A stretch of DNA of 18,950 nucleotides from a virus. Taxonomy: Duplodnaviria; Heunggongvirae; Uroviricota; Caudoviricetes. A model generated the notes under the pieces. That model searched no databases. It was given only the letters and a program-made list of their open reading frames with translations, and was not told the origin of the DNA. Shown here one piece after another: positions 2,593 to 12,716 of the stretch. A program made the position numbers and the translations under genes. How positions within the stretch are numbered: the stretch's first letter is position 1; each line of letters begins with the position of its first letter. The stretch spans positions 1 to 18,950 of IMG/VR virus record IMGVR_UViG_2778261447_000004; one strand, 5' to 3'.

Positions 2593-2967
2593 ATGCGTAT
2601 AGAGTTTGTTTTGCCTTACCCGCCGACGGTGAACACCTACTGGCGACGTCGTGGCAGCACATATTTTGTATCAAAAGCCGGTGAGTGTTATCGCCGTGAT
2701 GTGGCACTTATTGTTCGCCAGCAGCGGCTGAAATTAAACCTGTCCGGAAGGCTGGCGATAAAGATTATTGCAGAGCCACCGGATAAGCGCCGTCGTGACC
2801 TGGACAATATCCTGAAAGCACCACTGGATGCGCTGACGCATGCCGGACTTCTCATAGACGACGAGCAGTTTGATGAAATCAATATTGTGCGCGGTCAGCC
2901 TGTTCCTGGTGGGCGGCTGGGCGTGAAGATTTACGAAATAATGCATGACGGGGAGGTCCAAAAATGA
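2593..2967 (+). CDS. rusA: Crossover junction endodeoxyribonuclease RusA (Holliday junction resolvase)
   Basis: Ribosome-binding site AAGAGG. Contains the RusA signature PDKRRRDLDN and DALTHAGLLIDDEQ, alignable to E. coli RusA (PDRRRRDLDN, DALTKAGFWLDDAQ). Typical position just upstream of Q. Confidence 0.85.
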   Translation: MRIEFVLPYPPTVNTYWRRRGSTYFVSKAGECYRRDVALIVRQQRLKLNLSGRLAIKIIAEPPDKRRRDLDNILKAPLDALTHAGLLIDDEQFDEINIVRGQPVPGGRLGVKIYEIMHDGEVQK

Positions 2968-3785
2968 AACTGGAAGATTTACCGAAATACTATTCCCCAA
3001 AATCGCCAGGCCTGACTGATGCATCCGTCTCGACGTCAAAAGATGCGCTGAGCATCACTGATGTGATGGCTGCGCAGGGTATGACACAAAACCGGGCTGA
3101 GATGGGATTTTCTGCGTTCCTGGGGAAAATGGGCATCAGTATGAATGACAGAACGCGGGCAACAGAATTACTGGCAGATTATGCACTCAGTCGGTGCGAT
3201 CGCGTGGCGGCGTTGAGAAAACTTCCGGCAGAAATAAAACCGACAGTGATGCGCATTATGGCTTCGTACGCTTTTGAGGATTATGCCCGTAGTGCAGCGA
3301 GTAAAAAACAGTGCCCTTGTTGCGGTGGGAAAAAATTTATTGAAAGCGTAGTTTTTACAAACAAGGTCCAGTATCCGGATGGTAAACCGCCGGTATGGGC
3401 AAAGTGTACAAAGGGTGTGTATCCGTCTTACTGGGAAGAATGGAAAAAAGTCCGGGAAGTGGTAAAAGTTGCCTGTCCTGAATGCGGGGGAAAGGGTGAG
3501 GTCTCCACCGCCTGTAATGATTGCCGTGGGCGTGGTGTCGCCATTCATCGTGAAGAGTCGGTAAAACGTGGTATGCCTGTTATCAGAGACTGCCAGCGTT
3601 GTGGTGGTCGTGGCTATGAAAGATTACCGTCAACAGAGGCGTTTAATGCCATATGCAAAGTGACGAGCGCTATCACTCTTGATACGTGGAAAAAATCAGT
3701 GAAGCGTTTTTACGATACGCTGGTGGTTCGGTTTGACATTGAAGAGTCATGGGCGGAGCGGCAGTTGAAGAGGGTAACGCGATAG
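2964..3785 (+). CDS. Late-gene antiterminator Q-like protein (273 aa) with four DnaJ-type CxxCxGxG zinc-finger repeats
   Basis: Start overlaps the rusA stop (ATGA). Lies immediately upstream of a PR'-like promoter and tR'-like terminator. Cys-rich repeats CPCCGGKK, CPECGGKG, CNDCRGRG, CQRCGGRG. Assignment is by synteny and Zn-finger content, not confirmed homology. Confidence 0.6.
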   Translation: MKLEDLPKYYSPKSPGLTDASVSTSKDALSITDVMAAQGMTQNRAEMGFSAFLGKMGISMNDRTRATELLADYALSRCDRVAALRKLPAEIKPTVMRIMASYAFEDYARSAASKKQCPCCGGKKFIESVVFTNKVQYPDGKPPVWAKCTKGVYPSYWEEWKKVREVVKVACPECGGKGEVSTACNDCRGRGVAIHREESVKRGMPVIRDCQRCGGRGYERLPSTEAFNAICKVTSAITLDTWKKSVKRFYDTLVVRFDIEESWAERQLKRVTR

Positions 3786-4359: not shown

Positions 4360-5412
4360 ATGGCTAATACTGTAAAAATATCCAGTTGTGAGTTAATCAA
4401 CGCTGATTGCCTGGAATTTATCCAGACCTTACCGGAAAACTCTGTCGATCTGATTGTCACAGACCCGCCATACTTTAAAGTGAAACACGAAGGCTGGGAT
4501 AACCAGTGGAAGGGCGATGATGATTACCTGAAATGGCTGGATCAGTGTCTAGCGCAGTTCTGGCGGGTGTTAAAACCTGCCGGAAGCCTTTACCTGTTCT
4601 GCGGTCATCGTCTGGCATTTGATACCGAAATCATGATGCGTGAACGCTTTAATGTGCTGAACCACATTATCTGGGCGAAGCCGTCCGGACGATGGAACGG
4701 GTGCAATAAAGAAAGTCTGCGCGCATATTTTCCTGCCACAGAGCGCGTTCTGTTTGCTGAACATTACCAGGGGCCATATCGCGGCAAAAGTGACGGCTAT
4801 GCAGCAAAAGAAAGGGAACTCAAACAGCACATAATGGCACCGCTGATTTCGTATTTCAGGGATGCTCGTGCCGAACTGGGTATAACGGCAAAACAAATTG
4901 CCGAAGCCACAGGTAAGAAAAATATGGTTTCCCACTGGTTTGGTGCCAGTCAGTGGCAGTTGCCGAATGAGGCTGACTATCGGAAGTTACAGGCACTGTT
5001 TTCCCGTATAGCGGCAGAGAAGTTTCAGGAACAACAACTGGAACAACCACACCACCAGCTGGTGGCATCTTATGATTCACTGAATCGCAAATATTCTGAA
5101 TTGCTGGATGAGTTTAAATCTCTCCGGCGCTATTTCTCCGTATCAGTCTCCGTGCCTTATACCGATGTCTGGACGCATAAGCCCGTTCAGTTCTACCCGG
5201 GGAAACATCCGTGTGAGAAACCGGCGGATATGCTCAGACAAATAATCAATGCCAGTAGTCGACCAGGTGATCTGGTTGCTGATTTTTTTATGGGATCCGG
5301 TTCCACAATAAAAGCAGCAATGGCGCTGGGGCGTCGGGCCTTAGGTGTTGAGCTTGAGTCAGAGCGGTTTAATCAGACAGTGAAAGAGATAAACGAGCTG
5401 GTGGGGAAATAA
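4360..5412 (+). CDS. Orphan DNA methyltransferase, beta-class N6-adenine/N4-cytosine type (350 aa)
   Basis: Catalytic motif IV DPPY near the N-terminus (LIVTDPPYF) and SAM-binding motif I FxGxG near the C-terminus (DFFMGSGST). Motif IV before motif I is the beta-class order. No adjacent restriction endonuclease ORF. Confidence 0.85.
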
Positions 5413-5418
5413 TCTGGT

Positions 5419-5440
5419 GGCCACGTCAGGTGGCCTTTTT
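5419..5440 (+). terminator. Rho-independent terminator between methyltransferase and holin
   Basis: Stem GGCCAC (5419-5424), loop GTCAG, stem GTGGCC (5430-5435), followed by TTTTTATTT. Confidence 0.6.
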
Positions 5441-5479
5441 ATTTCCATTACACAGCACCCGCATCTGCGAGGTGGGGTT

Positions 5480-5695
5480 ATGAAATCCATGGATAAGTTA
5501 ACAACGGGTGTCGCCTATGGCACCTCGGCAGGCAGTGCCGGGTACTGGTTTTTGCAGTGGATTGATCAGGTTAGTCCGTCACAGTGGGCTGCTATTGGTG
5601 TGCTGGGGAGTCTGGCACTGGGCTTTCTGACTTATCTGACGAATCTGTATTTCAAAATTAAAGAGGATCGGCGCAAAGTGGCGCGGGGAGAGTAG
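5480..5695 (+). CDS. S: Pinholin/antiholin, phage 21 S-type (71 aa, dual-start MKSM)
   Basis: Product [71 protein letters not shown] is near-identical to phage 21 S21 as I recall it. Two in-frame starts (5480 and 5489) are separated by a Lys codon, the classic antiholin/holin dual-start motif. Confidence 0.9.
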
Positions 5696-5698
5696 GCG

Positions 5699-6010
5699 AT
5701 GAATAAAAAATACGAACTGGTTATTAAAGGGATAAGTAGTCACCCGGATAAGGTTGTGGTTACTGTGGCGCTGGAGAGCGACGGCTATCCGACGCTGTTT
5801 TCGCCGCATGTGGTGATTAAGCTTGATCGTGTTGACGGCGCAGCGCTGGAGCTTTATGAAGCAGAGGCGAAAAAACGAGCGAAGAAGATTTTTATGGATG
5901 CTGCTGCCGGGTTATGTGAAGCGTGGTCGTTGCCGGAAAAGCGCCTCCATTCAGAGGCGCGGTATACCATAAAAATTAACGGTTCAGATAACTCAATTGC
6001 TGGTTTTTAA
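5699..6010 (+). CDS. Hypothetical protein between holin and endolysin (103 aa); possibly YdfR/DUF1327-like
   Basis: ATG with GGAGAG upstream, 3 nt after the holin stop. Same position and length as YdfR in the Qin prophage lysis cassette as I recall it. Sequence identity not verified. Confidence 0.55.
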   Translation: MNKKYELVIKGISSHPDKVVVTVALESDGYPTLFSPHVVIKLDRVDGAALELYEAEAKKRAKKIFMDAAAGLCEAWSLPEKRLHSEARYTIKINGSDNSIAGF

Positions 6011-6370: not shown

Positions 6371-6904
6371 ATGAGCACAAAAATCAGATACGGCCTGTCG
6401 GCTGCCGTTCTGGCGTTGATTGCTGCAGGTGCATCCGCTCCCGTCATTCTTGACCAGTTTCTGGACGAAAAAGAAGGTAATCACACTACGGCATACCGTG
6501 ATGGCTCCGGTATATGGACCATCTGTCGGGGTGCCACGATGGTGGATGGAAAACCCGTTTTTCCCGGTATGAAACTGTCGAAGGAAAAATGCGACCAGGT
6601 CAACGCTATCGAACGGGATAAGGCGCTGGCATGGGTGGAGCGCAATATTAAAGTTCCACTGACCGAAGCACAGAAAGCGGGTATTGCGTCATTCTGTCCC
6701 TATAACATTGGCCCCGGTAAGTGTTTCCCGTCGACGTTTTATAAGCGGCTTAATGCCGGTGATCGTAAAGGTGCCTGTGAGTCGATTCGCTGGTGGATTA
6801 AGGACGGTGGGCGTGATTGCCGCACACGTTCAAATAACTGCTACGGACAGGTTATTCGTCGTGACCAGGAAAGCGCATTAGCCTGTTGGGGGATAGATCA
6901 GTGA
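6371..6904 (+). CDS. R: SAR endolysin, T4-lysozyme-like muramidase (177 aa)
   Basis: N-terminal weakly hydrophobic Gly/Ala-rich signal-arrest-release segment [21 protein letters not shown]. Catalytic E-x8-D-x5-T triad in [16 protein letters not shown]. Pairs with a pinholin as in phage 21. Confidence 0.85.
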
Positions 6905-7365
6905 GAAGAGTAGTCGCGATTATCTCTGCTCTGGTTATCTGCATCATCGTCTGCCTGTCATGGGCTGTTAATCATTACCGTGATAACGCCATTACCTACA
7001 AAGCCCAGCGCGACAAAAATGCCAGAGAACTGAAGCTGGCGAACGTGGCAATTACTGACATGCAGATGCGTCAGCGTGATGTTGCTGCGCTCGATGCAAA
7101 ATACACGAAGGAGTTAGCTGATGCGAAAGCTGAAAATGATGCTCTGCGTGATGATGTTGCCGCTGGTCGTCGTCGGTTGCACATCAAAGCAGTCTGTCAG
7201 TCAGTGCGTGAAGCCACCACCGCCTCCGGCGTGGATAATGCAACCAGCCCCCGACTGGAAGACACCGCTGAACGGGATTATTTCACCCTCAGAGACCGAT
7301 TGATGACGATGCAGAAGCAACTGGAAGGGGCGCAGGAATATATCCGCACCCAGTGCATTAAGTAG
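6901..7365 (+). CDS. Rz: Spanin inner-membrane subunit Rz (i-spanin)
   Basis: GTG start overlapping the endolysin stop (GTGA). Product [44 protein letters not shown] is near-identical to lambda Rz. Confidence 0.85.
7121..7303 (+). CDS. Rz1: Spanin outer-membrane lipoprotein subunit Rz1 (o-spanin), embedded in Rz in the +1 frame
   Basis: Product [60 protein letters not shown] with lipobox VVGC and proline-rich stretch, near-identical to lambda Rz1. GGAG 7 nt upstream. Confidence 0.85.
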
Positions 7366-7388
7366 CCTTTTTGTTATCAGGAGAATGT

Positions 7389-7595
7389 ATGAAGAAATTA
7401 CAGGTAACCGCAAAGCTCTTTAATGGAAGAATCCCGTTCCGGATTTTACAGCGTGGTCGTGTTCTGGCTGAAGGTACATTCAGTGGTAAATGCACGGAAT
7501 GTTATTCACGAATATATGAAGTGGATGCCTCGGATGAAGATATAACCGTTGAGTGTAATGCCGGGATTGTATCGGCCACATTGCTTCATGGGTGA
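7389..7595 (+). CDS. Hypothetical small protein (68 aa); stand-alone copy of a domain repeated in the 286-aa ORF
   Basis: ATG at 7389 preceded by AGGAG. By-eye alignment: KKLQVTAKLFNGRIPFRILQRGRVLAEGTFSGK...YEVDASDEDITVE...GIVSATLL versus residues about 113-185 of the 7961-8821 product KKALLVTANQLSGRVDFQVRQGGRVLVNDAFVGR...YDVDADDQDISIS...GIVLTAELL. Confidence 0.55.
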   Translation: MKKLQVTAKLFNGRIPFRILQRGRVLAEGTFSGKCTECYSRIYEVDASDEDITVECNAGIVSATLLHG

Positions 7596-7624
7596 ATTGG
7601 GTTGTCGCTGGAGGATGCAGGCAA

Positions 7625-7825
7625 ATGAATTACCAACTGGCAAAACTTTATCGTGGTAAACATTTCGCAGGGTATGGGATTGCAGTTAATGGTGAGTTAC
7701 TGGAAGGGCAGCTTTCCGCCAGGACAGAGTCACGTGGAGGCGAGCCACCAACAGTCACTGTGACTTTCAGACTGACAGCAGAACATATCGAGAATCAGCC
7801 CGTCATTCAACTGAACAGGGTGTGA
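7625..7825 (+). CDS. Hypothetical small protein (66 aa); weaker, possible third copy of the same domain
   Basis: ATG at 7625 with GGAGGA 9 nt upstream; a GTG at 7592 is the alternative start. AKLYRGKHFAGYGIAVNGELLEGQLSAR loosely aligns with AKLFNGRIPFRILQRGRVLAEGTFSGK of the preceding ORF. Confidence 0.5.
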   Translation: MNYQLAKLYRGKHFAGYGIAVNGELLEGQLSARTESRGGEPPTVTVTFRLTAEHIENQPVIQLNRV

Positions 7826-7832
7826 GGTATTT

Positions 7833-7961
7833 ATGCCATCACGAATCCCACGTGCCTGCCGTAAGCGTGGATGCGCAGGTACAATCACAGACAGTTCTGG
7901 TTACTGCGATAAACATCGTGTGCGACCGTGGTTGCTCGGTGTCTTTGTCAGGAGGTTTTGA
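7833..7961 (+). pseudogene. Short ORF (42 aa) resembling the N-terminal zinc-binding region of a phage HNH endonuclease; probable truncated remnant
   Basis: ATG at 7833 with GAGG 6 nt upstream. Product MPSRIPRACRKRGCAGTITDSSGYCDKHRVRPW... has the C-x3-GC ... GYC-x2-H pattern seen at the N-terminus of terminase-associated HNH endonucleases. Frame ends after 42 codons with TGA overlapping the ATG of the next ORF, where composition becomes AT-rich. Confidence 0.4.
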
Positions 7962-8821
7962 TGAAAGAGTTGCAAAAAATTAATTCAATAATGGAAAGGT
8001 TAAGTGCTCTTGAGCGTAAGCTGGACGATTGTGGAAAGCTGTGTGTTGAAAAGCAAAATGAGCTTTACCGGGAATTTTTTACAATCGTAAGTGAGCTGAT
8101 GCCAATTGTTAATAACTGCCTGATGACATCCAGATTTTTTAATGTCGATGCTACTACATCCAGAAAATTTTCTGTGAAAATTCAAGAAAGAGTTTCTGGT
8201 AGTGTGACAAGAGAGATGGCTGAACAGTTGGTGGCAATGAGCAATAAAACAAAAAGAAAAAAGGCATTGCTTGTAACAGCAAATCAGCTTTCAGGGCGCG
8301 TTGACTTTCAGGTCAGACAGGGTGGGCGTGTACTGGTAAATGATGCGTTCGTTGGACGTAGCTTTAGTCCTTACTCGATAAAATATGATGTTGATGCAGA
8401 TGATCAGGATATCAGCATTTCCTGGAAATCTGAGACAGCAGGGATTGTATTAACAGCAGAGTTGTTGAGTGATGATAAAAATGATGTCCAGCATCATTTG
8501 GACGAAAAGAATCATATTTCTGAAATTTGTATGAAGCCACGCAGCGGAATGACTTTATTGTCACGCACTCTTGCTGCTGGCTTTTCTGCACCGGAAAAAC
8601 GTGTGCTTCTGGTAGTGCCTGAAGATGCAGATATTCGACCACTGAATGGCTGTGATGTTATTAGTGCAAAAACATTGCATACCCGCGTCATTCCTGTACC
8701 GGATGTGGTCATTATTGATGATGTTGAGAAATGCAAGTCTGTTTCCTCAACTGCCACAATCAAGCGAATTTTACGTTGTAGCACGTCGGCTGTTGTATTC
8801 CGGAAGCAGTTACATAACTAA
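7961..8821 (+). CDS. Hypothetical protein (286 aa): N-terminal predicted helical region, central domain paralogous to the 68-aa ORF, unique C-terminal region
   Basis: ATG at 7961 with AGGAGG 5 nt upstream. Strongly AT-rich relative to the phage backbone. Internal domain homology described under 7389-7595. No family recognised. Confidence 0.65.
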   Translation: MKELQKINSIMERLSALERKLDDCGKLCVEKQNELYREFFTIVSELMPIVNNCLMTSRFFNVDATTSRKFSVKIQERVSGSVTREMAEQLVAMSNKTKRKKALLVTANQLSGRVDFQVRQGGRVLVNDAFVGRSFSPYSIKYDVDADDQDISISWKSETAGIVLTAELLSDDKNDVQHHLDEKNHISEICMKPRSGMTLLSRTLAAGFSAPEKRVLLVVPEDADIRPLNGCDVISAKTLHTRVIPVPDVVIIDDVEKCKSVSSTATIKRILRCSTSAVVFRKQLHN

Positions 8822-8944
8822 CCAGTTTTGTTTTGCAGAACATCCTCAACTAAAAGCTTATAGAAAGAGAGCCTGAGATATTTTTTCTGTCTCTCGTAGT
8901 TGTTTGTTTTTTTCGAACAGGCTTACAACTTACAGGATATAAAC

Positions 8945-9394
8945 ATGCAAGAAGAAGCAAATAAAATTCTTGTTGATTTATTGCAGAAGGCCAGCGATGG
9001 AATTGATTCCGCCATTGCATTCAGTCAGGCTCAGATTCCGGATGTTGTTCATCAGTTGCTGGTATGGAATATGGTTGATAGCCTGATTAAAACATTAATA
9101 GCCATTTCAACAATCCCTCTGGTTTTCTGGTTTATGAAGAAGCAGTGCCAAAGAGTTGAGACAGGTAAAATCGGTGATGAAGGATATTCATGGGAGAAGG
9201 GAAATCCCAAATACAGGCCGACAATGGTTTGGGATAGCAAAGGTGATATTAATCTTCTTATCGTGCCATTGGTTGGAGTTTTGACTATGTGGGGGATTTT
9301 TATTATTTGTGCAGTAACCAATATGACATGGTTAAAAATCTGGCTGGCACCTAAGTTATATCTAATCGAATACGCAGCATCACTAATTAAATAG
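8945..9394 (+). CDS. Hypothetical membrane protein with two predicted transmembrane helices (149 aa)
   Basis: ATG at 8945 with AGGA 7 nt upstream. Hydrophobic segments LIKTLIAISTIPLVFWFM and INLLIVPLVGVLTMWGIFIICAV. AT-rich. Followed by terminator-like hairpins. Confidence 0.6.
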   Translation: MQEEANKILVDLLQKASDGIDSAIAFSQAQIPDVVHQLLVWNMVDSLIKTLIAISTIPLVFWFMKKQCQRVETGKIGDEGYSWEKGNPKYRPTMVWDSKGDINLLIVPLVGVLTMWGIFIICAVTNMTWLKIWLAPKLYLIEYAASLIK

Positions 9395-9451
9395 TCCATT
9401 ACAAAAGCCATTCGCTACAGAGTGGCTTTGATAATGGCTTATGCCCTGTAC

Positions 9452-9477
9452 GGGATAACTTAACTGATATCCCTTTT
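9452..9477 (+). terminator. Putative rho-independent terminator closing the accessory cassette
   Basis: Stem GGGATA (9452-9457), 10-nt loop, stem TATCCC (9468-9473), then TTTT. A second weaker hairpin AAAGCCA...TGGCTTT lies at 9403-9428. Confidence 0.45.
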
Positions 9478-9688
9478 AACGGATAAAGGTATTCAAGCCT
9501 GACACATCATGCGCTGTATCGTCGCCGTATTCCCGTATTAACAGAGACCGTAGCCCGACGGGGAACTCCTCTGCGCGAGTGTGCGGGAATAATCAAAAAC
9601 GATGCACACCGGGTTTTACTGTGCTGACAGACGCAGGGTTACCCTCATAGTCGCTTTTCCGGTGCGATGGTGGAAGAAACCGGGATGT

Positions 9689-9883
9689 TTATTCATCATC
9701 TCTTTGGATTGATGTATATGCTCTCTTTTCTGACGTTAGTCTCCGACGGCAGGCTTCAATGACCCAGGCTGAGAAATTCCCGGACCCTTTTTGCTCAAGA
9801 GCGATGTTAATTTGTTCAATCATTTGGTTAGGAAAGCGGATGTTGCGGGTTGTTGTTCTGCGGGTTCTGTTCTTCGTTGACAT
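9689..9883 (-). CDS. Small ribbon-helix-helix-like DNA-binding protein (64 aa); resembles DUF3950/YlcI-type prophage proteins
   Basis: Product MSTKNRTRRTTTRNIRFPNQMIEQINIALEQKGSGNFSAWVIEACRRRL fits a ribbon-helix-helix pattern after a basic N-terminus. Only a weak ribosome-binding site. Family attribution is from memory. Confidence 0.5.
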   Translation of the reverse strand: MSTKNRTRRTTTRNIRFPNQMIEQINIALEQKGSGNFSAWVIEACRRRLTSEKRAYTSIQRDDE

Positions 9884-10309: not shown

Positions 10310-10816
10310 ATGGCCTTTTTATTGAATAAAAGTGATATGGCCTCCTCCATCGGTATCTCTGTTCAGGCATTTGATAAATGGGGCGTTCCTCCTGTCGAGC
10401 GTCGGGGGAGGGAAGTTTTTTATGACGTTAAAACTGTACTGGAGATAGATCGCGAGCGGCGACAACACAATCATAGAACACCTGATGACGGGGGCGATCT
10501 GGAGGAAAGGCTGCTTCGGGCCAGAGCTGAACTGACAGAAGAACAGGCCGTAGCTCAAAAACTTAAAAATCAGGTAACCGAAGGTAAGCTCATCGATTCA
10601 GACTTCTGCGTTTTCGCCCTCAGCAAGCTGGCGATGGCATTGTCCAGTACGCTTGATTCTATTCCGTTATCCATGCAGCGACAGTTCCCGGATTTAACGC
10701 CACGTCATCTTGACCATCTGAAAACCCTTATTGCGAAGGGCGCAAATCAGTGTGCGCGGGCAGGGGATAAATTACCGGATTTGCTGGATGAATATATCAG
10801 AGCAACAACTGAATAA
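10310..10816 (+). CDS. nu1: Terminase small subunit Nu1
   Basis: ATG at 10310 with GGAGAGGAG upstream. Alignable to lambda Nu1: ALSKLAMALSSTLDSIPLSMQRQFPDLTPRHLDHLK versus VLSRIAGEIASILDGLPLSVQRRFPELENRHVDFLK. Stop overlaps the start of A as in lambda. Confidence 0.8.
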   Translation: MAFLLNKSDMASSIGISVQAFDKWGVPPVERRGREVFYDVKTVLEIDRERRQHNHRTPDDGGDLEERLLRARAELTEEQAVAQKLKNQVTEGKLIDSDFCVFALSKLAMALSSTLDSIPLSMQRQFPDLTPRHLDHLKTLIAKGANQCARAGDKLPDLLDEYIRATTE

Positions 10817-12716
10817 TCTGATGGCTGCCGTTTCGGTTGCGCTGCAGCCTCTGGTCAGGGTTGTACCGATGACGGCAGTTGAATGGGCTGACCAGTATTA
10901 TTATCTGCCGAAAGAATCCTCATACGGTGACGGCGAATGGAAAACGCTGCCGTTCCAGATCGCCATCATGAACAGTATGGGGAATGATCAGGTCCGCACT
11001 GTTAATCTGATTAAATCTGCCCGTATTGGTTATACAAAGATGTTGCTGGGGGTGGTCGGGTATTTTATTGAGCATAAATCCCGAAACAGTCTGCTTTTTC
11101 AGCCCACGGATTCTGCCGCTGAAGATTTTATGAAGTCTCACGTGGAGACGACGATTAGGGATGTGCCATGTCTGAAAGACCTTTCTCCATGGCTGGGGCG
11201 TAAACATCGTGACAATACTCTCACGCTGAAACGCTTTTCATCGGGTGTGGGCTTCTGGTGCCTGGGTGGTGCGGCAGCAAAAAACTACCGTGAAAAATCC
11301 GTGGACGTGGTCTGCTATGACGAACTCTCATCGTTTGAACCTGATGTTGAAAAAGAGGGCTCGCCAACCCTGCTGGGGGATAAGCGTATTGAGGGCTCTG
11401 TATGGCCAAAATCCATTCGCGGCTCGACGCCTAAAATCAAAGGCTCCTGCCAGATCGAAAAAGCCGCTAACGAGTCGGCACATTTCATGCGTTTTTATGT
11501 GCCCTGCCCGCACTGTGGGGAGGAGCAGTATCTGAAATTTGGCGATGAATCCACGCCTTTTGGCCTTAAATGGGAGAAGGACAGCCCCGAAAGCGTTTTC
11601 TACCTTTGTGAGCATCATGGCTGTGTGATCCATCAGTCTGAGCTTGACCAGAGTAACGGGCGGTGGATCTGTGAAAACACGGGCATGTGGACCCGTGACG
11701 GCCTGATGTTTTTCAGCGCCCGGGGTGATGAAATTCCGCCGCCGCGTTCCATCACTTTCCATATCTGGACGGCGTACAGTCCGTTCACCACCTGGGTACA
11801 GATTGTCTATGACTGGCTGGATGCACTGAAAGATCCCAACGGCCTGAAAACCTTTGTGAACACCACGCTGGGCGAGACCTGGGAAGAGGCCGTGGGCGAA
11901 AAACTCGATCACCAGGTACTGATGGATAAGGTTGTGCGTTACACGGCGGCGGTGCCTGCCCGGGTGGTTTATCTGACGGCGGGCATTGACTCGCAGCGAA
12001 ACCGTTTTGAGATGTATGTCTGGGGATGGGCTCCGGGAGAGGAAGCCTTTCTGGTGGATAAAATCATTATTATGGGGCGTCCCGATGAGGAAGAGACGCT
12101 GTTACGTGTGGATGCAGCGATCAACAAAAAATACTGCCATGCAGACGGAACCGAAATGACCATTTCCCGTGTCTGCTGGGACATCGGGGGGATCGATGGA
12201 GAAATCGTTTATCAGAGGTCAAAAAAACACGGTGTTTTCCGGGTGCTGCCGGTAAAAGGCGCATCTGTCTATGGCAAGCCGGTGATCACCATGCCAAAAA
12301 CCCGCAATCAGCGGGGCGTGTATCTGTGTGAAGTGGGGACAGACACCGCAAAAGAAATTCTCTATGCCCGTATGAAAGCCGCTCCCACGCCTGCGGATGA
12401 ATCCACGTCGTATGCCATCCGTTTTCCTGATGATCCGGAGATTTTTTCGCAGACAGAGGCGCAGCAACTGGTCGCGGAAGAGCTTGTGGAGAAGTGGGAA
12501 AAAGGAAAGATGCGTCTGCTGTGGGATAACAAAAAGCGGCGTAACGAAGCGCTGGACTGCCTGGTGTATGCCTACGCGGCATTACGTGTGTCCGTGCAAC
12601 GCTGGCAGCTTGATCTGGCTGTACTGGCAAAATCCCGGGAAGAAGAGACGACCCGGCCAACCCTTAAAGAACTGGCAGCGAAGCTGTCCGGAGGAGTGAA
12701 TGGTTACAGTCGCTGA
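10788..12716 (+). CDS. A: Terminase large subunit gpA (642 aa)
   Basis: Starts MNISEQQLNN (lambda MNISNSQVNR). Long collinear identity to lambda gpA including TAVEWAD, YYLPKES, MKRF..G.GFWCLGG and CPHCGEEQYLKFGD. Confidence 0.95.
   Translation: MNISEQQLNNLMAAVSVALQPLVRVVPMTAVEWADQYYYLPKESSYGDGEWKTLPFQIAIMNSMGNDQVRTVNLIKSARIGYTKMLLGVVGYFIEHKSRNSLLFQPTDSAAEDFMKSHVETTIRDVPCLKDLSPWLGRKHRDNTLTLKRFSSGVGFWCLGGAAAKNYREKSVDVVCYDELSSFEPDVEKEGSPTLLGDKRIEGSVWPKSIRGSTPKIKGSCQIEKAANESAHFMRFYVPCPHCGEEQYLKFGDESTPFGLKWEKDSPESVFYLCEHHGCVIHQSELDQSNGRWICENTGMWTRDGLMFFSARGDEIPPPRSITFHIWTAYSPFTTWVQIVYDWLDALKDPNGLKTFVNTTLGETWEEAVGEKLDHQVLMDKVVRYTAAVPARVVYLTAGIDSQRNRFEMYVWGWAPGEEAFLVDKIIIMGRPDEEETLLRVDAAINKKYCHADGTEMTISRVCWDIGGIDGEIVYQRSKKHGVFRVLPVKGASVYGKPVITMPKTRNQRGVYLCEVGTDTAKEILYARMKAAPTPADESTSYAIRFPDDPEIFSQTEAQQLVAEELVEKWEKGKMRLLWDNKKRRNEALDCLVYAYAALRVSVQRWQLDLAVLAKSREEETTRPTLKELAAKLSGGVNGYSR

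What the first reader, a model, noticed from the sequence alone, without database searches (positions are those of the whole stretch)
8945..9394. Two-helix membrane protein as terminal gene of the cassette
Small phage-encoded membrane proteins at accessory positions often act in superinfection exclusion, as abortive-infection effectors, or as toxins. This one has two strongly hydrophobic helices separated by a charged loop (KKQCQRVETGKIGDEGYSWEKGNPKYRP) and is cotranscribed after the 286-aa gene.
Basis: inference. Interest (0 to 1): 0.5.

Follow-up and report, generated by a model that had tools for sequence, protein, structure and literature searches.

The report
Orphan phage two-helix membrane protein
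The 149-residue membrane protein is real, but it is a stand-alone member of a very large uncharacterised phage family (Shigella phage Sf6 gene 34-like), not a fixed partner of the neighbouring 286-residue gene, and its function has never been tested.

Summary
Window 8945-9394 (+) encodes a 149-aa protein with two hydrophobic helices (about residues 43-64 and 102-125). The gene is under purifying selection (dN/dS 0.06-0.16).

The "terminal gene of a cassette" reading does not hold. The protein belongs to phrog_3054, which includes Sf6 gene 34. This family has at least 2,558 clusters at 50% identity, no Pfam model and no known function. It occurs in virulent phages (N4-like, rV5-like, Vibrio, Pseudomonas) as well as temperate ones. 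Its usual place in temperate phages is the early-left operon just after the antiterminator N or ral. Only 5 of 77 informative metagenomic viral loci have the 286-aa gene upstream. A 99%-identical copy exists in a contig that differs from the window by a clean 938-bp indel removing that gene. The 286-aa protein family is confined to Escherichia.

What the family conserves is the N-terminal 42 residues and the C-terminal 22 residues. Both helices and the loop vary freely. Charge bias suggests the termini face the periplasm.

Best guess, inferred only: an accessory inner-membrane protein made during lytic growth that blocks superinfection. Interest is modest.

The parts
8945..9394 (+). 149-aa membrane protein gene of the phrog_3054 / Sf6 gene 34-like family, stop codon included. 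Residues 1-42 are a conserved acidic N-terminal helical segment. Residues ~43-64 form the first hydrophobic helix, 65-101 the charged loop, ~102-125 the second hydrophobic helix, and 128-149 a conserved amphipathic C-terminal helix.
8931..8934 (+). Shine-Dalgarno-like AGGA, 8 nt upstream of the ATG
   Evidence: read directly from the sequence
8888..8944 (+). Upstream non-coding segment that travels with the gene in late-region copies. It is shared with loci L026, L104 and L002. No consensus sigma-70 promoter was found in it.
9392..9445 (+). Stable stem-loop beginning at the stop codon (-22.9 kcal/mol, z = -4.9, no U-run). It is conserved in late-region copies. It could be a 3' stabiliser or a weak terminator.
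7961..8821 (+). Neighbouring 286-aa gene (phrog_2571, function unknown, Escherichia only). It is listed because the finding links the two genes. It lies inside a 938-bp indel (7950-8887) and is not a conserved partner.

Best explanation
Shown: the gene encodes a stand-alone, mobile, accessory inner-membrane protein of the phrog_3054 family, whose named member is Shigella phage Sf6 gene 34 protein.

Architecture: a conserved acidic N-terminal helical segment (about 42 aa), two poorly conserved hydrophobic helices, a loop between them that varies from 10 to 74 aa and is rich in Lys/Arg, and a conserved C-terminal amphipathic helix (WLKIWxAPKLYLIEYAAxLxK).

Inferred:
- The positive-inside rule puts the loop in the cytoplasm and both conserved termini in the periplasm.
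- The hydrophobic helices act mainly as anchors. The second evolves almost neutrally.
- The paired termini are the working surface.
- The protein is made during lytic growth. Here that would be by read-through of the Q-dependent late transcript; in most relatives it would be from the N-antiterminated early-left operon.

Mechanism I consider most likely: superinfection exclusion at the inner membrane. The periplasmic face would interfere with genome entry by later-arriving phages, as T4 Imm, P22 SieA and HK97 gp15 do. It would act on its own, not with the 286-aa gene. I put the identity and stand-alone part at about 0.85 and the exclusion mechanism at about 0.35-0.4.
For: Family membership:
- Full-length match to phrog_3054, E = 2.9e-61.
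- All 72 diverse relatives match the same PHROG.
- Profile comparison (hhalign) with Sf6 gp34 gives probability 100%, E = 3e-44.

Size and spread:
- 2,558 clusters at 50% identity, all 115-185 aa among the 150 listed, no domain fusions.
- Present in virulent N4-like, rV5-like, Vibrio, Pseudomonas and Rheinheimera phages, and in P22-like and lambdoid phages.

Accessory and mobile nature:
- Phage N4 has no family member annotated at the site that the homologue occupies in N4-like phage B2, after the RNA polymerase II genes.
- The gene occurs at two classic accessory slots. One is after N or ral, the slot where lambda carries sieB. The other is between Rz and the small terminase gene.
- Copies after N are flanked by terminator-like hairpins.
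- The gene is an intragenic mosaic. All four combinations of end type and loop type exist.

Conservation pattern:
- The termini are nearly invariant; the helices and loop vary.
- dN/dS is at most 0.25 in the termini and about 1.05 in the second hydrophobic helix.

Topology: in 72 sequences the N tail averages 2.5 K+R and 6.0 D+E, while the loop averages 6.8 K+R. The loop has more K+R than both tails together in 47 sequences and fewer in 15.

Independence from the 286-aa gene.
Against: - No experiment exists for any family member. Literature searches for the accessions and PHROG ids returned nothing.
- No homology to any known exclusion protein. Profile-comparison probability is at most 0.14% for P22 SieA, lambda SieB and RexB. 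No Pfam or PADLOC family was hit.
- No convincing promoter lies in front of the gene, so expression from the repressed prophage is unsupported. Prophage expression is the usual requirement for exclusion in temperate phages.
- The same termini are conserved across phages of many genera. That fits a conserved host target or self-assembly better than phage-specific blocking of entry.
- Topology rests only on charge counting. The AlphaFold2 model is of low confidence (pLDDT 64.7), and fold search gave nothing.
Confidence: 0.4

Rival explanations
1. Host-takeover or counter-defence factor. An early membrane protein acts on a conserved host envelope component, for example the divisome, FtsH or insertases, or a membrane-acting abortive-infection effector. 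It would benefit the phage's own lytic cycle rather than exclude other phages.
For: - Found in early gene clusters of strictly virulent phages: after the RNA polymerase II genes in N4-like phage B2, beside an AAA ATPase in phage alia, beside a DUF2800 nuclease in a Vibrio phage, and beside NAD-salvage genes in Barba19A.
- In temperate phages it sits among ral, cIII, kil and gam or abc, which are all host-modulating genes.
- The same terminal motifs are conserved across phages of Escherichia, Vibrio, Pseudomonas and Rheinheimera, which implies a conserved target.
- No promoter for prophage expression was found.
Against: - No target is known and no neighbouring gene is conserved.
- Some copies are late genes, directly coupled to Rz. 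That timing is odd for a takeover function.
- Patchy distribution shows the gene is dispensable.
Confidence: 0.3
2. Lysis accessory protein, such as an antiholin or lysis-timing regulator, attached to the lysis cassette.
For: - In the window it follows holin, endolysin and Rz in the late operon.
- In Proteus, Providencia, Buttiauxella, Dryocola and Pantoea prophages its start abuts or overlaps the stop of the Rz (or overlapping Rz1-frame) ORF.
- Small proteins with two hydrophobic helices are typical lysis regulators.
Against: - At least 46 of 80 IMG/VR (metagenomic viral contig) loci have it after N in the early-left operon, far from the lysis genes. Only 7 have it after Rz.
- In the N4-like phage B2 the homologue lies next to RNA polymerase genes, with no lysis gene among its neighbours.
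- No Pfam holin family was hit.
- The window has its own holin at 5417-5695.
Confidence: 0.1
3. One reading: the membrane effector or toxin of a two-gene abortive-infection cassette. The 286-aa protein would be the sensor, in the manner of RexA/RexB.
For: - The two genes are adjacent on the same strand with no predicted terminator between them.
- The sizes, 286 and 149 aa, recall RexA (279) and RexB (144).
- The pair recurs in N15-like phage-plasmids and some lambdoid prophages. There it is flanked by 190-300-bp direct repeats, as if it moved as one module.
- The C-terminal domain of the 286-aa protein gives faint matches to P-loop or RecA-like folds, all with E > 0.001.
Against: - The pairing is seen in 5 of 77 informative loci and only in Escherichia.
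- A 99%-identical membrane gene exists without the partner.
- The partner is truncated in phage YDC107_1, where the membrane gene is absent.
- There are no PADLOC hits for either protein.
- Profile comparison gives probability 0.13% against RexB and 2.4% for the 286-aa protein against RexA.
- RexB has four transmembrane helices (from established knowledge); this protein has two.
- The family is abundant in virulent phages, where a prophage defence cassette makes no sense.
Confidence: 0.07

Closest known systems
Shigella phage Sf6 gene 34 protein (NP_958210.1) and the PHROG family phrog_3054
   Same: Homologous over the full length (profile-comparison probability 100%, E = 3e-44; PHROG E = 2.9e-61). 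Both have the same N- and C-terminal motifs and the same arrangement of two hydrophobic helices. Both are accessory genes in mosaic phage genomes.
   Different: Sf6 gp34 and most relatives lie in the early-left operon (N, ral, gp34, terminator tL2A). The window copy lies in the late operon between Rz and the small terminase gene. Neither has a known function.
Lambda and P22 SieB (superinfection exclusion B)
   Same: Small membrane-associated accessory protein. Most family members occupy the slot just downstream of N, where lambda carries sieB.
   Different: No sequence relation (profile-comparison probability 0.14%; no Pfam SieB hit). Lambda sieB is on the opposite strand to N. The window copy is not in that slot at all.
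T4 Imm, P22 SieA and HK97 gp15 (inner-membrane proteins that block phage DNA entry)
   Same: Small inner-membrane proteins. Each is encoded by a single gene, needs no partner, and is made by the phage to exclude later phages. This is a functional analogy only.
   Different: No homology (P22 SieA profile-comparison probability 0.12%; no Pfam immunity family hit). The helix number and sizes of these proteins are recalled from the literature and were not tested here. No exclusion phenotype has been shown for this family.
Lambda RexB of the RexAB abortive-infection system
   Same: Similar size (144 against 149 aa). It is an inner-membrane protein encoded next to a gene of about 280 aa.
   Different: RexB has four transmembrane helices; this protein has two. 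No homology and no PADLOC hit. The neighbour is unrelated to RexA, and the pairing is not conserved.

Membership tests
phrog_3054 / Sf6 gene 34-like phage membrane proteins | Full-length match to the family profile | tested here: met
   hmmscan E = 2.9e-61, residues 1-149 on profile positions 1-137 of 137. Profile comparison with Sf6 gp34 gives probability 100%.
phrog_3054 / Sf6 gene 34-like phage membrane proteins | Conserved N motif (L..LL.KA..G.D.A..F...QIPDVV.QLL.W) and C motif (WLKIW.APKLYLIEYAA.L.K) flanking two hydrophobic helices, in a protein of 115-185 aa | tested here: met
   Alignments A1 and A4. F26, P32, L39 and Y143 are invariant. The window protein has all of them.
RexAB-type abortive infection (RexB effector) | Homology to RexB, with four transmembrane helices | tested here: not met
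   No PADLOC hit at E <= 1. Profile-comparison probability 0.13%. Only two hydrophobic helices are present.
RexAB-type abortive infection (RexB effector) | Obligate RexA-like partner encoded alongside | tested here: not met
   The 286-aa neighbour against RexA gives probability 2.4%. The neighbour is absent from 72 of 77 informative loci and from the 99%-identical copy in L026.
SieB (Pfam SieB family; lambda and P22) | Sequence homology to SieB | tested here: not met
   No Pfam hit at E <= 1 for the window protein, or at E <= 0.1 for 72 relatives. Profile-comparison probability 0.14%.
SieB (Pfam SieB family; lambda and P22) | Expression from its own promoter in the lysogen | tested here: inconclusive
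   No consensus sigma-70 site in the 123-nt spacer. Only weak hexamers are visible by eye upstream of the copies after N. RNA data are needed.
P22 SieA | Sequence homology | tested here: not met
   Profile-comparison probability 0.12%.
Holins and antiholins | Match to a holin family profile and conserved linkage to an endolysin | tested here: not met
   No Pfam holin family hit. A separate holin lies at 5417-5695. Most family members are in early regions away from lysis genes.
Moron (autonomous promoter-gene-terminator unit expressed from the prophage) | Own terminator and mosaic insertion boundaries | tested here: met
   Terminator-like hairpins flank the copies in L029, L100 and L005. A stem-loop with z = -4.9 follows the window copy. 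The gene has different neighbours in different phages.
Moron (autonomous promoter-gene-terminator unit expressed from the prophage) | Own promoter active in the lysogen | tested here: inconclusive
   No promoter-like site lies upstream of the ATG. This cannot be settled without transcript data.

The most novel reading that the evidence does not exclude
The phrog_3054 family has at least 2,558 clusters at 50% identity, no Pfam model and no literature. It would be a pan-proteobacterial phage membrane module whose conserved, periplasm-facing N- and C-terminal helices hit one conserved envelope target. That would give a new, widespread single-gene mechanism of superinfection exclusion or envelope takeover, shared by virulent and temperate phages. 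The swappable loop and second-helix segment would tune its specificity.
Probability: 0.25. Interest if true: 0.6.

Novelty: new member of a known kind. Interest (0 to 1): 0.33.

Why it matters
The gene itself is ordinary. Near-identical copies are annotated as hypothetical proteins in about 2.5% of complete E. coli genomes.

The family is more interesting:
- It is very large and spans virulent and temperate phages of several genera.
- It is missing from Pfam and has no assigned function.
- Its conservation pattern is unusual for a small membrane protein: nearly invariant soluble termini, with freely drifting membrane helices and a loop that recombines.

An expression and phage-challenge experiment on one member would annotate thousands of phage genes. 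It would also show whether this is a common single-gene exclusion or takeover device.

For the scan, the main lesson is negative. Adjacency to the 286-aa gene does not make a functional cassette.

Tried and rejected
Searches that returned nothing:
- Pfam, NCBIfam and PADLOC scans of both proteins.
- Pfam on 72 diverse relatives, which gave only scattered chance hits.
- Sequence search of the Protein Data Bank. The 286-aa protein had no hit. The family profile hit only a designed coiled coil, which I treat as spurious.
- Literature searches by accession or PHROG id and by topic.

Structure:
- AlphaFold2 models were of low confidence (64.7 and 57.6).
- Foldseek of the membrane protein against viral models gave E >= 1.6.
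- Foldseek of the 286-aa protein against the PDB gave no hit at E <= 0.001. There were only faint partial matches of its C-terminal domain to P-loop or RecA-like folds.
- The afdb50 library was unavailable.

Homology to known proteins, all rejected: SieA, SieB and RexB for the membrane protein, and RexA for the 286-aa protein.

Ideas rejected:
- A conserved partnership with the downstream ATPase seen in phage alia. The neighbours differ in every virulent phage examined.
- The longer TTG-start ORF (8900-9394) and the antisense 119-aa ORF (9052-9411). I do not treat either as a gene, because all homologues start at the ATG.

I found no convincing sigma-70 promoter for the gene.

Full report
**Setting.** The window is the late region of a lambdoid prophage of E. 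coli. All genes named here are on the + strand unless marked.
- HNH endonuclease 1531-2580
- RusA 2593-2967
- Antiterminator Q 2964-3785
- DNA methyltransferase 4360-5412
- Holin 5417-5695
- Endolysin 6371-6904
- Rz spanin 6886-7365
- Two small ORFs, 7371-7595 and 7592-7825
- The 286-aa gene 7961-8821
- The gene in question 8945-9394
- A YlcI/YnfO gene on the minus strand, 9689-9883
- Small terminase subunit from 10205, large terminase subunit 10731-12716, then head genes

The gene therefore lies in the accessory slot between Rz and the small terminase gene.

**Observation.**
- An AGGA ribosome-binding site lies 8 nt before the ATG.
- Hydropathy shows two hydrophobic stretches. Residues 46-64 peak at 1.76 and residues 104-122 peak at 2.58. 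A strongly hydrophilic loop lies between them.
- The AlphaFold2 model has low confidence (pLDDT 64.7). It is all-helical: 2-30, 33-68, 106-125 and 128-147.
- The ORF is a real gene. It has 498 homologue clusters. dN/dS is 0.06-0.16 against relatives at 68-91% identity.
- RefSeq annotates it. A copy at 80% or higher nucleotide identity is present in 136 of 5,426 complete E. coli genomes.

**What it belongs to.**
- Pfam, NCBIfam and PADLOC give nothing.
- PHROGs gives a full-length match to phrog_3054, function unknown (E = 2.9e-61).
- A profile search of 1.84 billion representative proteins finds 2,558 clusters at E <= 0.001 and 1,215 at E <= 1e-10. All 150 listed are 70-184 aa, including some fragments, and none carries an extra domain.
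- All 72 diverse members match phrog_3054, and none matches a Pfam family convincingly.
- A translated search of sequenced phages finds the gene in 180 records. These include virulent N4-like phages (Shigella phage B2, FSL SP-058/076), rV5-like Justusliebigvirus phages, many Vibrio phages, Pseudomonas and Rheinheimera phages, and temperate P22-like and lambdoid phages (CUS-3, HF4s, SPN9CC, HK633).
- Sf6 gene 34 protein is a member (profile-comparison probability 100%).
- No paper mentions the accessions or the PHROG ids.

**The cassette idea fails.**
- Among 80 IMG/VR (metagenomic viral contig) loci, only 5 of the 77 with enough upstream sequence have the 286-aa gene in front.
- 46 have an N-like antiterminator within 1.2 kb upstream on the same strand. 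Most of the remaining 25 have a cI-like repressor or ral upstream. 7 follow Rz.
- Annotated examples agree. CUS-3 has cI, N, ral, then the gene. HF4s has N, then the gene after 8 nt. Sf6 has N, gp36, ral, gp34, then terminator tL2A. Lambda carries sieB in this slot.
- In other genera the gene directly follows Rz, HNH, methyltransferase, Ant or ParB genes, and never a homologue of the 286-aa protein.
- Contig L026 has a 99%-identical copy. It is collinear with the window except for a 938-bp indel, 7950-8887. That indel is exactly the 286-aa gene with its ribosome-binding site, and its junction has a TGTC microhomology.
- The 286-aa family has only 15 clusters, all from Escherichia.
- In phage YDC107_1 that gene is truncated and the membrane gene is missing.
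- The 286-aa protein is 100% identical between the window and PhiR46_1, while the membrane protein is only 82% identical.

One point favours a local module. In L001, L002 and L106 the pair is flanked by a 190-300-bp direct repeat. That applies to one Escherichia lineage only.

**Anatomy of the family.** Across 72 members that are 30-55% identical to the window protein, conservation is concentrated in two segments.
- The first about 42 residues: L..LL.KA..G.D.A..F...QIPDVV.QLL.W, with F26, P32 and L39 invariant.
- The last about 22 residues: WLKIW.APKLYLIEYAA.L.K, with Y143 invariant and A135, P136, K137 and E142 present in over 90%.

Both hydrophobic helices vary in sequence, and the loop varies in sequence and in length, from 10 to 74 aa.

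Between close alleles, dN/dS differs by segment.

| Segment | dN/dS |
|---|---|
| N- and C-termini | at most 0.25 |
| Loop | 0.2-0.3 |
| Second hydrophobic helix | about 1.05 |

The gene is also an intragenic mosaic.
- The window's nt 1-126 and 391-450 match the late-region type, L002 (2 of 126 and 1 of 60 differences).
- Its nt 201-330 match the type found after N, L029 (2 of 130 differences, against 28 of 130 for L002).
- All four combinations of end type and loop type exist.

I infer that the termini carry the function and the helices are anchors. The central segment is exchanged by recombination between the conserved ends.

**Topology (inferred).** These are charge counts from the 72 sequences.

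| Segment | Mean length (aa) | Mean K+R | Mean D+E |
|---|---|---|---|
| N tail | 46.6 | 2.5 | 6.0 |
| Loop | 39.6 | 6.8 | 6.1 |
| C tail | 25.4 | 2.6 | 1.6 |

- In the loop, the Lys/Arg residues usually cluster right after the first helix.
- The loop has more K+R than both tails together in 47 sequences and fewer in 15.
- By the positive-inside rule, the loop is cytoplasmic and both conserved termini are periplasmic.
- An acidic N tail with few positive charges is the kind that can cross the membrane without a signal peptide. That point is from established knowledge, not tested here.
- This is only a prediction. No dedicated topology predictor was available.

**Expression (inferred).**
- The 123-nt spacer after the 286-aa gene has no terminator-like site and no usable promoter-like site. 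It is not unusually structured (z = -1.3).
- About 57 nt upstream of the ATG, and a strong stem-loop right after the stop codon (-22.9 kcal/mol, z = -4.9), travel with the gene in late-region copies.
- Copies after N are bracketed by canonical hairpin-plus-U-run terminators.

The simplest reading is expression during lytic growth. Here that would be late, by Q-dependent read-through. In most relatives it would be delayed-early, by N-dependent read-through. Expression from the repressed prophage is not supported, and it is not excluded.

**Mechanism.** Nothing is shown experimentally. Five features suggest a gene involved in conflict at the cell envelope:
- distribution that differs even between related phages;
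- mosaic boundaries;
- two accessory slots;
- presence in virulent phages;
- a membrane location.

| Reading | Probability |
|---|---|
| Single-gene superinfection exclusion at the inner membrane | about 0.35-0.4 |
| Host-takeover or counter-defence role on a conserved envelope target | about 0.3 |
| Lysis-timing accessory | about 0.1 |

- Exclusion ranks first because it is the commonest known role of such proteins, and because lambda carries sieB in the slot after N.
- The takeover reading fits the conserved termini and the lack of a prophage promoter better.
- The lysis reading is weakened by the early-region context of most members.
- Homology to SieA, SieB, RexB and RexA was tested and rejected.

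**The 286-aa neighbour.**
- The model is of low confidence (pLDDT 57.6). It suggests an N-terminal helical hairpin, a beta domain (100-170) and a C-terminal alpha/beta domain (188-279).
- The C-terminal domain gives only faint partial Foldseek matches to P-loop or RecA-like folds, all with E > 0.001.
- It lacks a Walker A motif, as read from the sequence.
- Its function remains unknown.

**Verdict.** The feature is real, and the description of the protein is correct. The cassette interpretation is not supported. The gene is an ordinary member of a very large, catalogued but uncharacterised phage membrane-protein family. Interest is modest for this locus. The family as a whole is a reasonable target for a simple expression and phage-challenge experiment.

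Noticed in passing
window 7950-8887: The whole 286-aa gene with its ribosome-binding site is a clean 938-bp indel relative to IMG/VR (metagenomic viral) contig L026. L026 is otherwise collinear with the window at 92-96% identity on both sides. The junction has a TGTC microhomology.
   Followed up: yes
window 7371-7595 (+): A 74-aa ORF directly after Rz is a diverged fragment (about 45% identity) of the 286-aa gene family, matching phrog_2571 positions 98-158. It looks like the remnant of a second copy and points to repeated recombination at this slot.
   Followed up: partly
window 8945-9394; loci L002, L029, L100, L104: The membrane-protein gene is an intragenic mosaic. Its 5' 126 nt and 3' 60 nt are of the late-region allele. 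Nt 201-330 are of the allele found after N in other phages. All four combinations of end type and loop type occur. dN/dS in the second hydrophobic helix is about 1.05.
   Followed up: yes
L001 8665-8967, L002 6001-6187, L106 7784-7970, compared with window 9396-9695: In these relatives, a 190-300-bp copy of the sequence that follows the membrane gene also lies just upstream of the 286-aa gene. Direct repeats therefore flank the two-gene module there. The window lacks the upstream copy.
   Followed up: partly
window 9392-9445 (+): A very stable stem-loop begins at the stop codon (-22.9 kcal/mol, z = -4.9; none of 200 shuffles folds as well). It has no U-run. It is conserved in late-region copies. 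Its role, as terminator or RNA stabiliser, is unknown.
   Followed up: partly
L106 (plasmid pEC21Z151-46K, NZ_CP101200.1); L115 (phage YDC107_1, Ravinvirus): The same gene pair occurs on 46-kb N15-like phage-plasmids of E. coli. In YDC107_1 the 286-aa gene is cut to 199 aa and the membrane gene is absent.
   Followed up: partly
L107 3973-4962 (Shigella phage B2 gp84): In this N4-like virulent phage, the gene next to the family member encodes a protein with collagen repeats and a YadA-like outer-membrane anchor domain. That is an unusual thing to find in a phage early region.
   Followed up: no
window 5699-6010 (+) and 4360-5412 (+): An uncharacterised 103-aa ORF lies between the holin and the endolysin. 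It matches phrog_2091, phrog_2735 and phrog_1085, all of unknown function. A DNA methyltransferase gene lies between Q and the holin. Both are further accessory genes inside the late operon.
   Followed up: no
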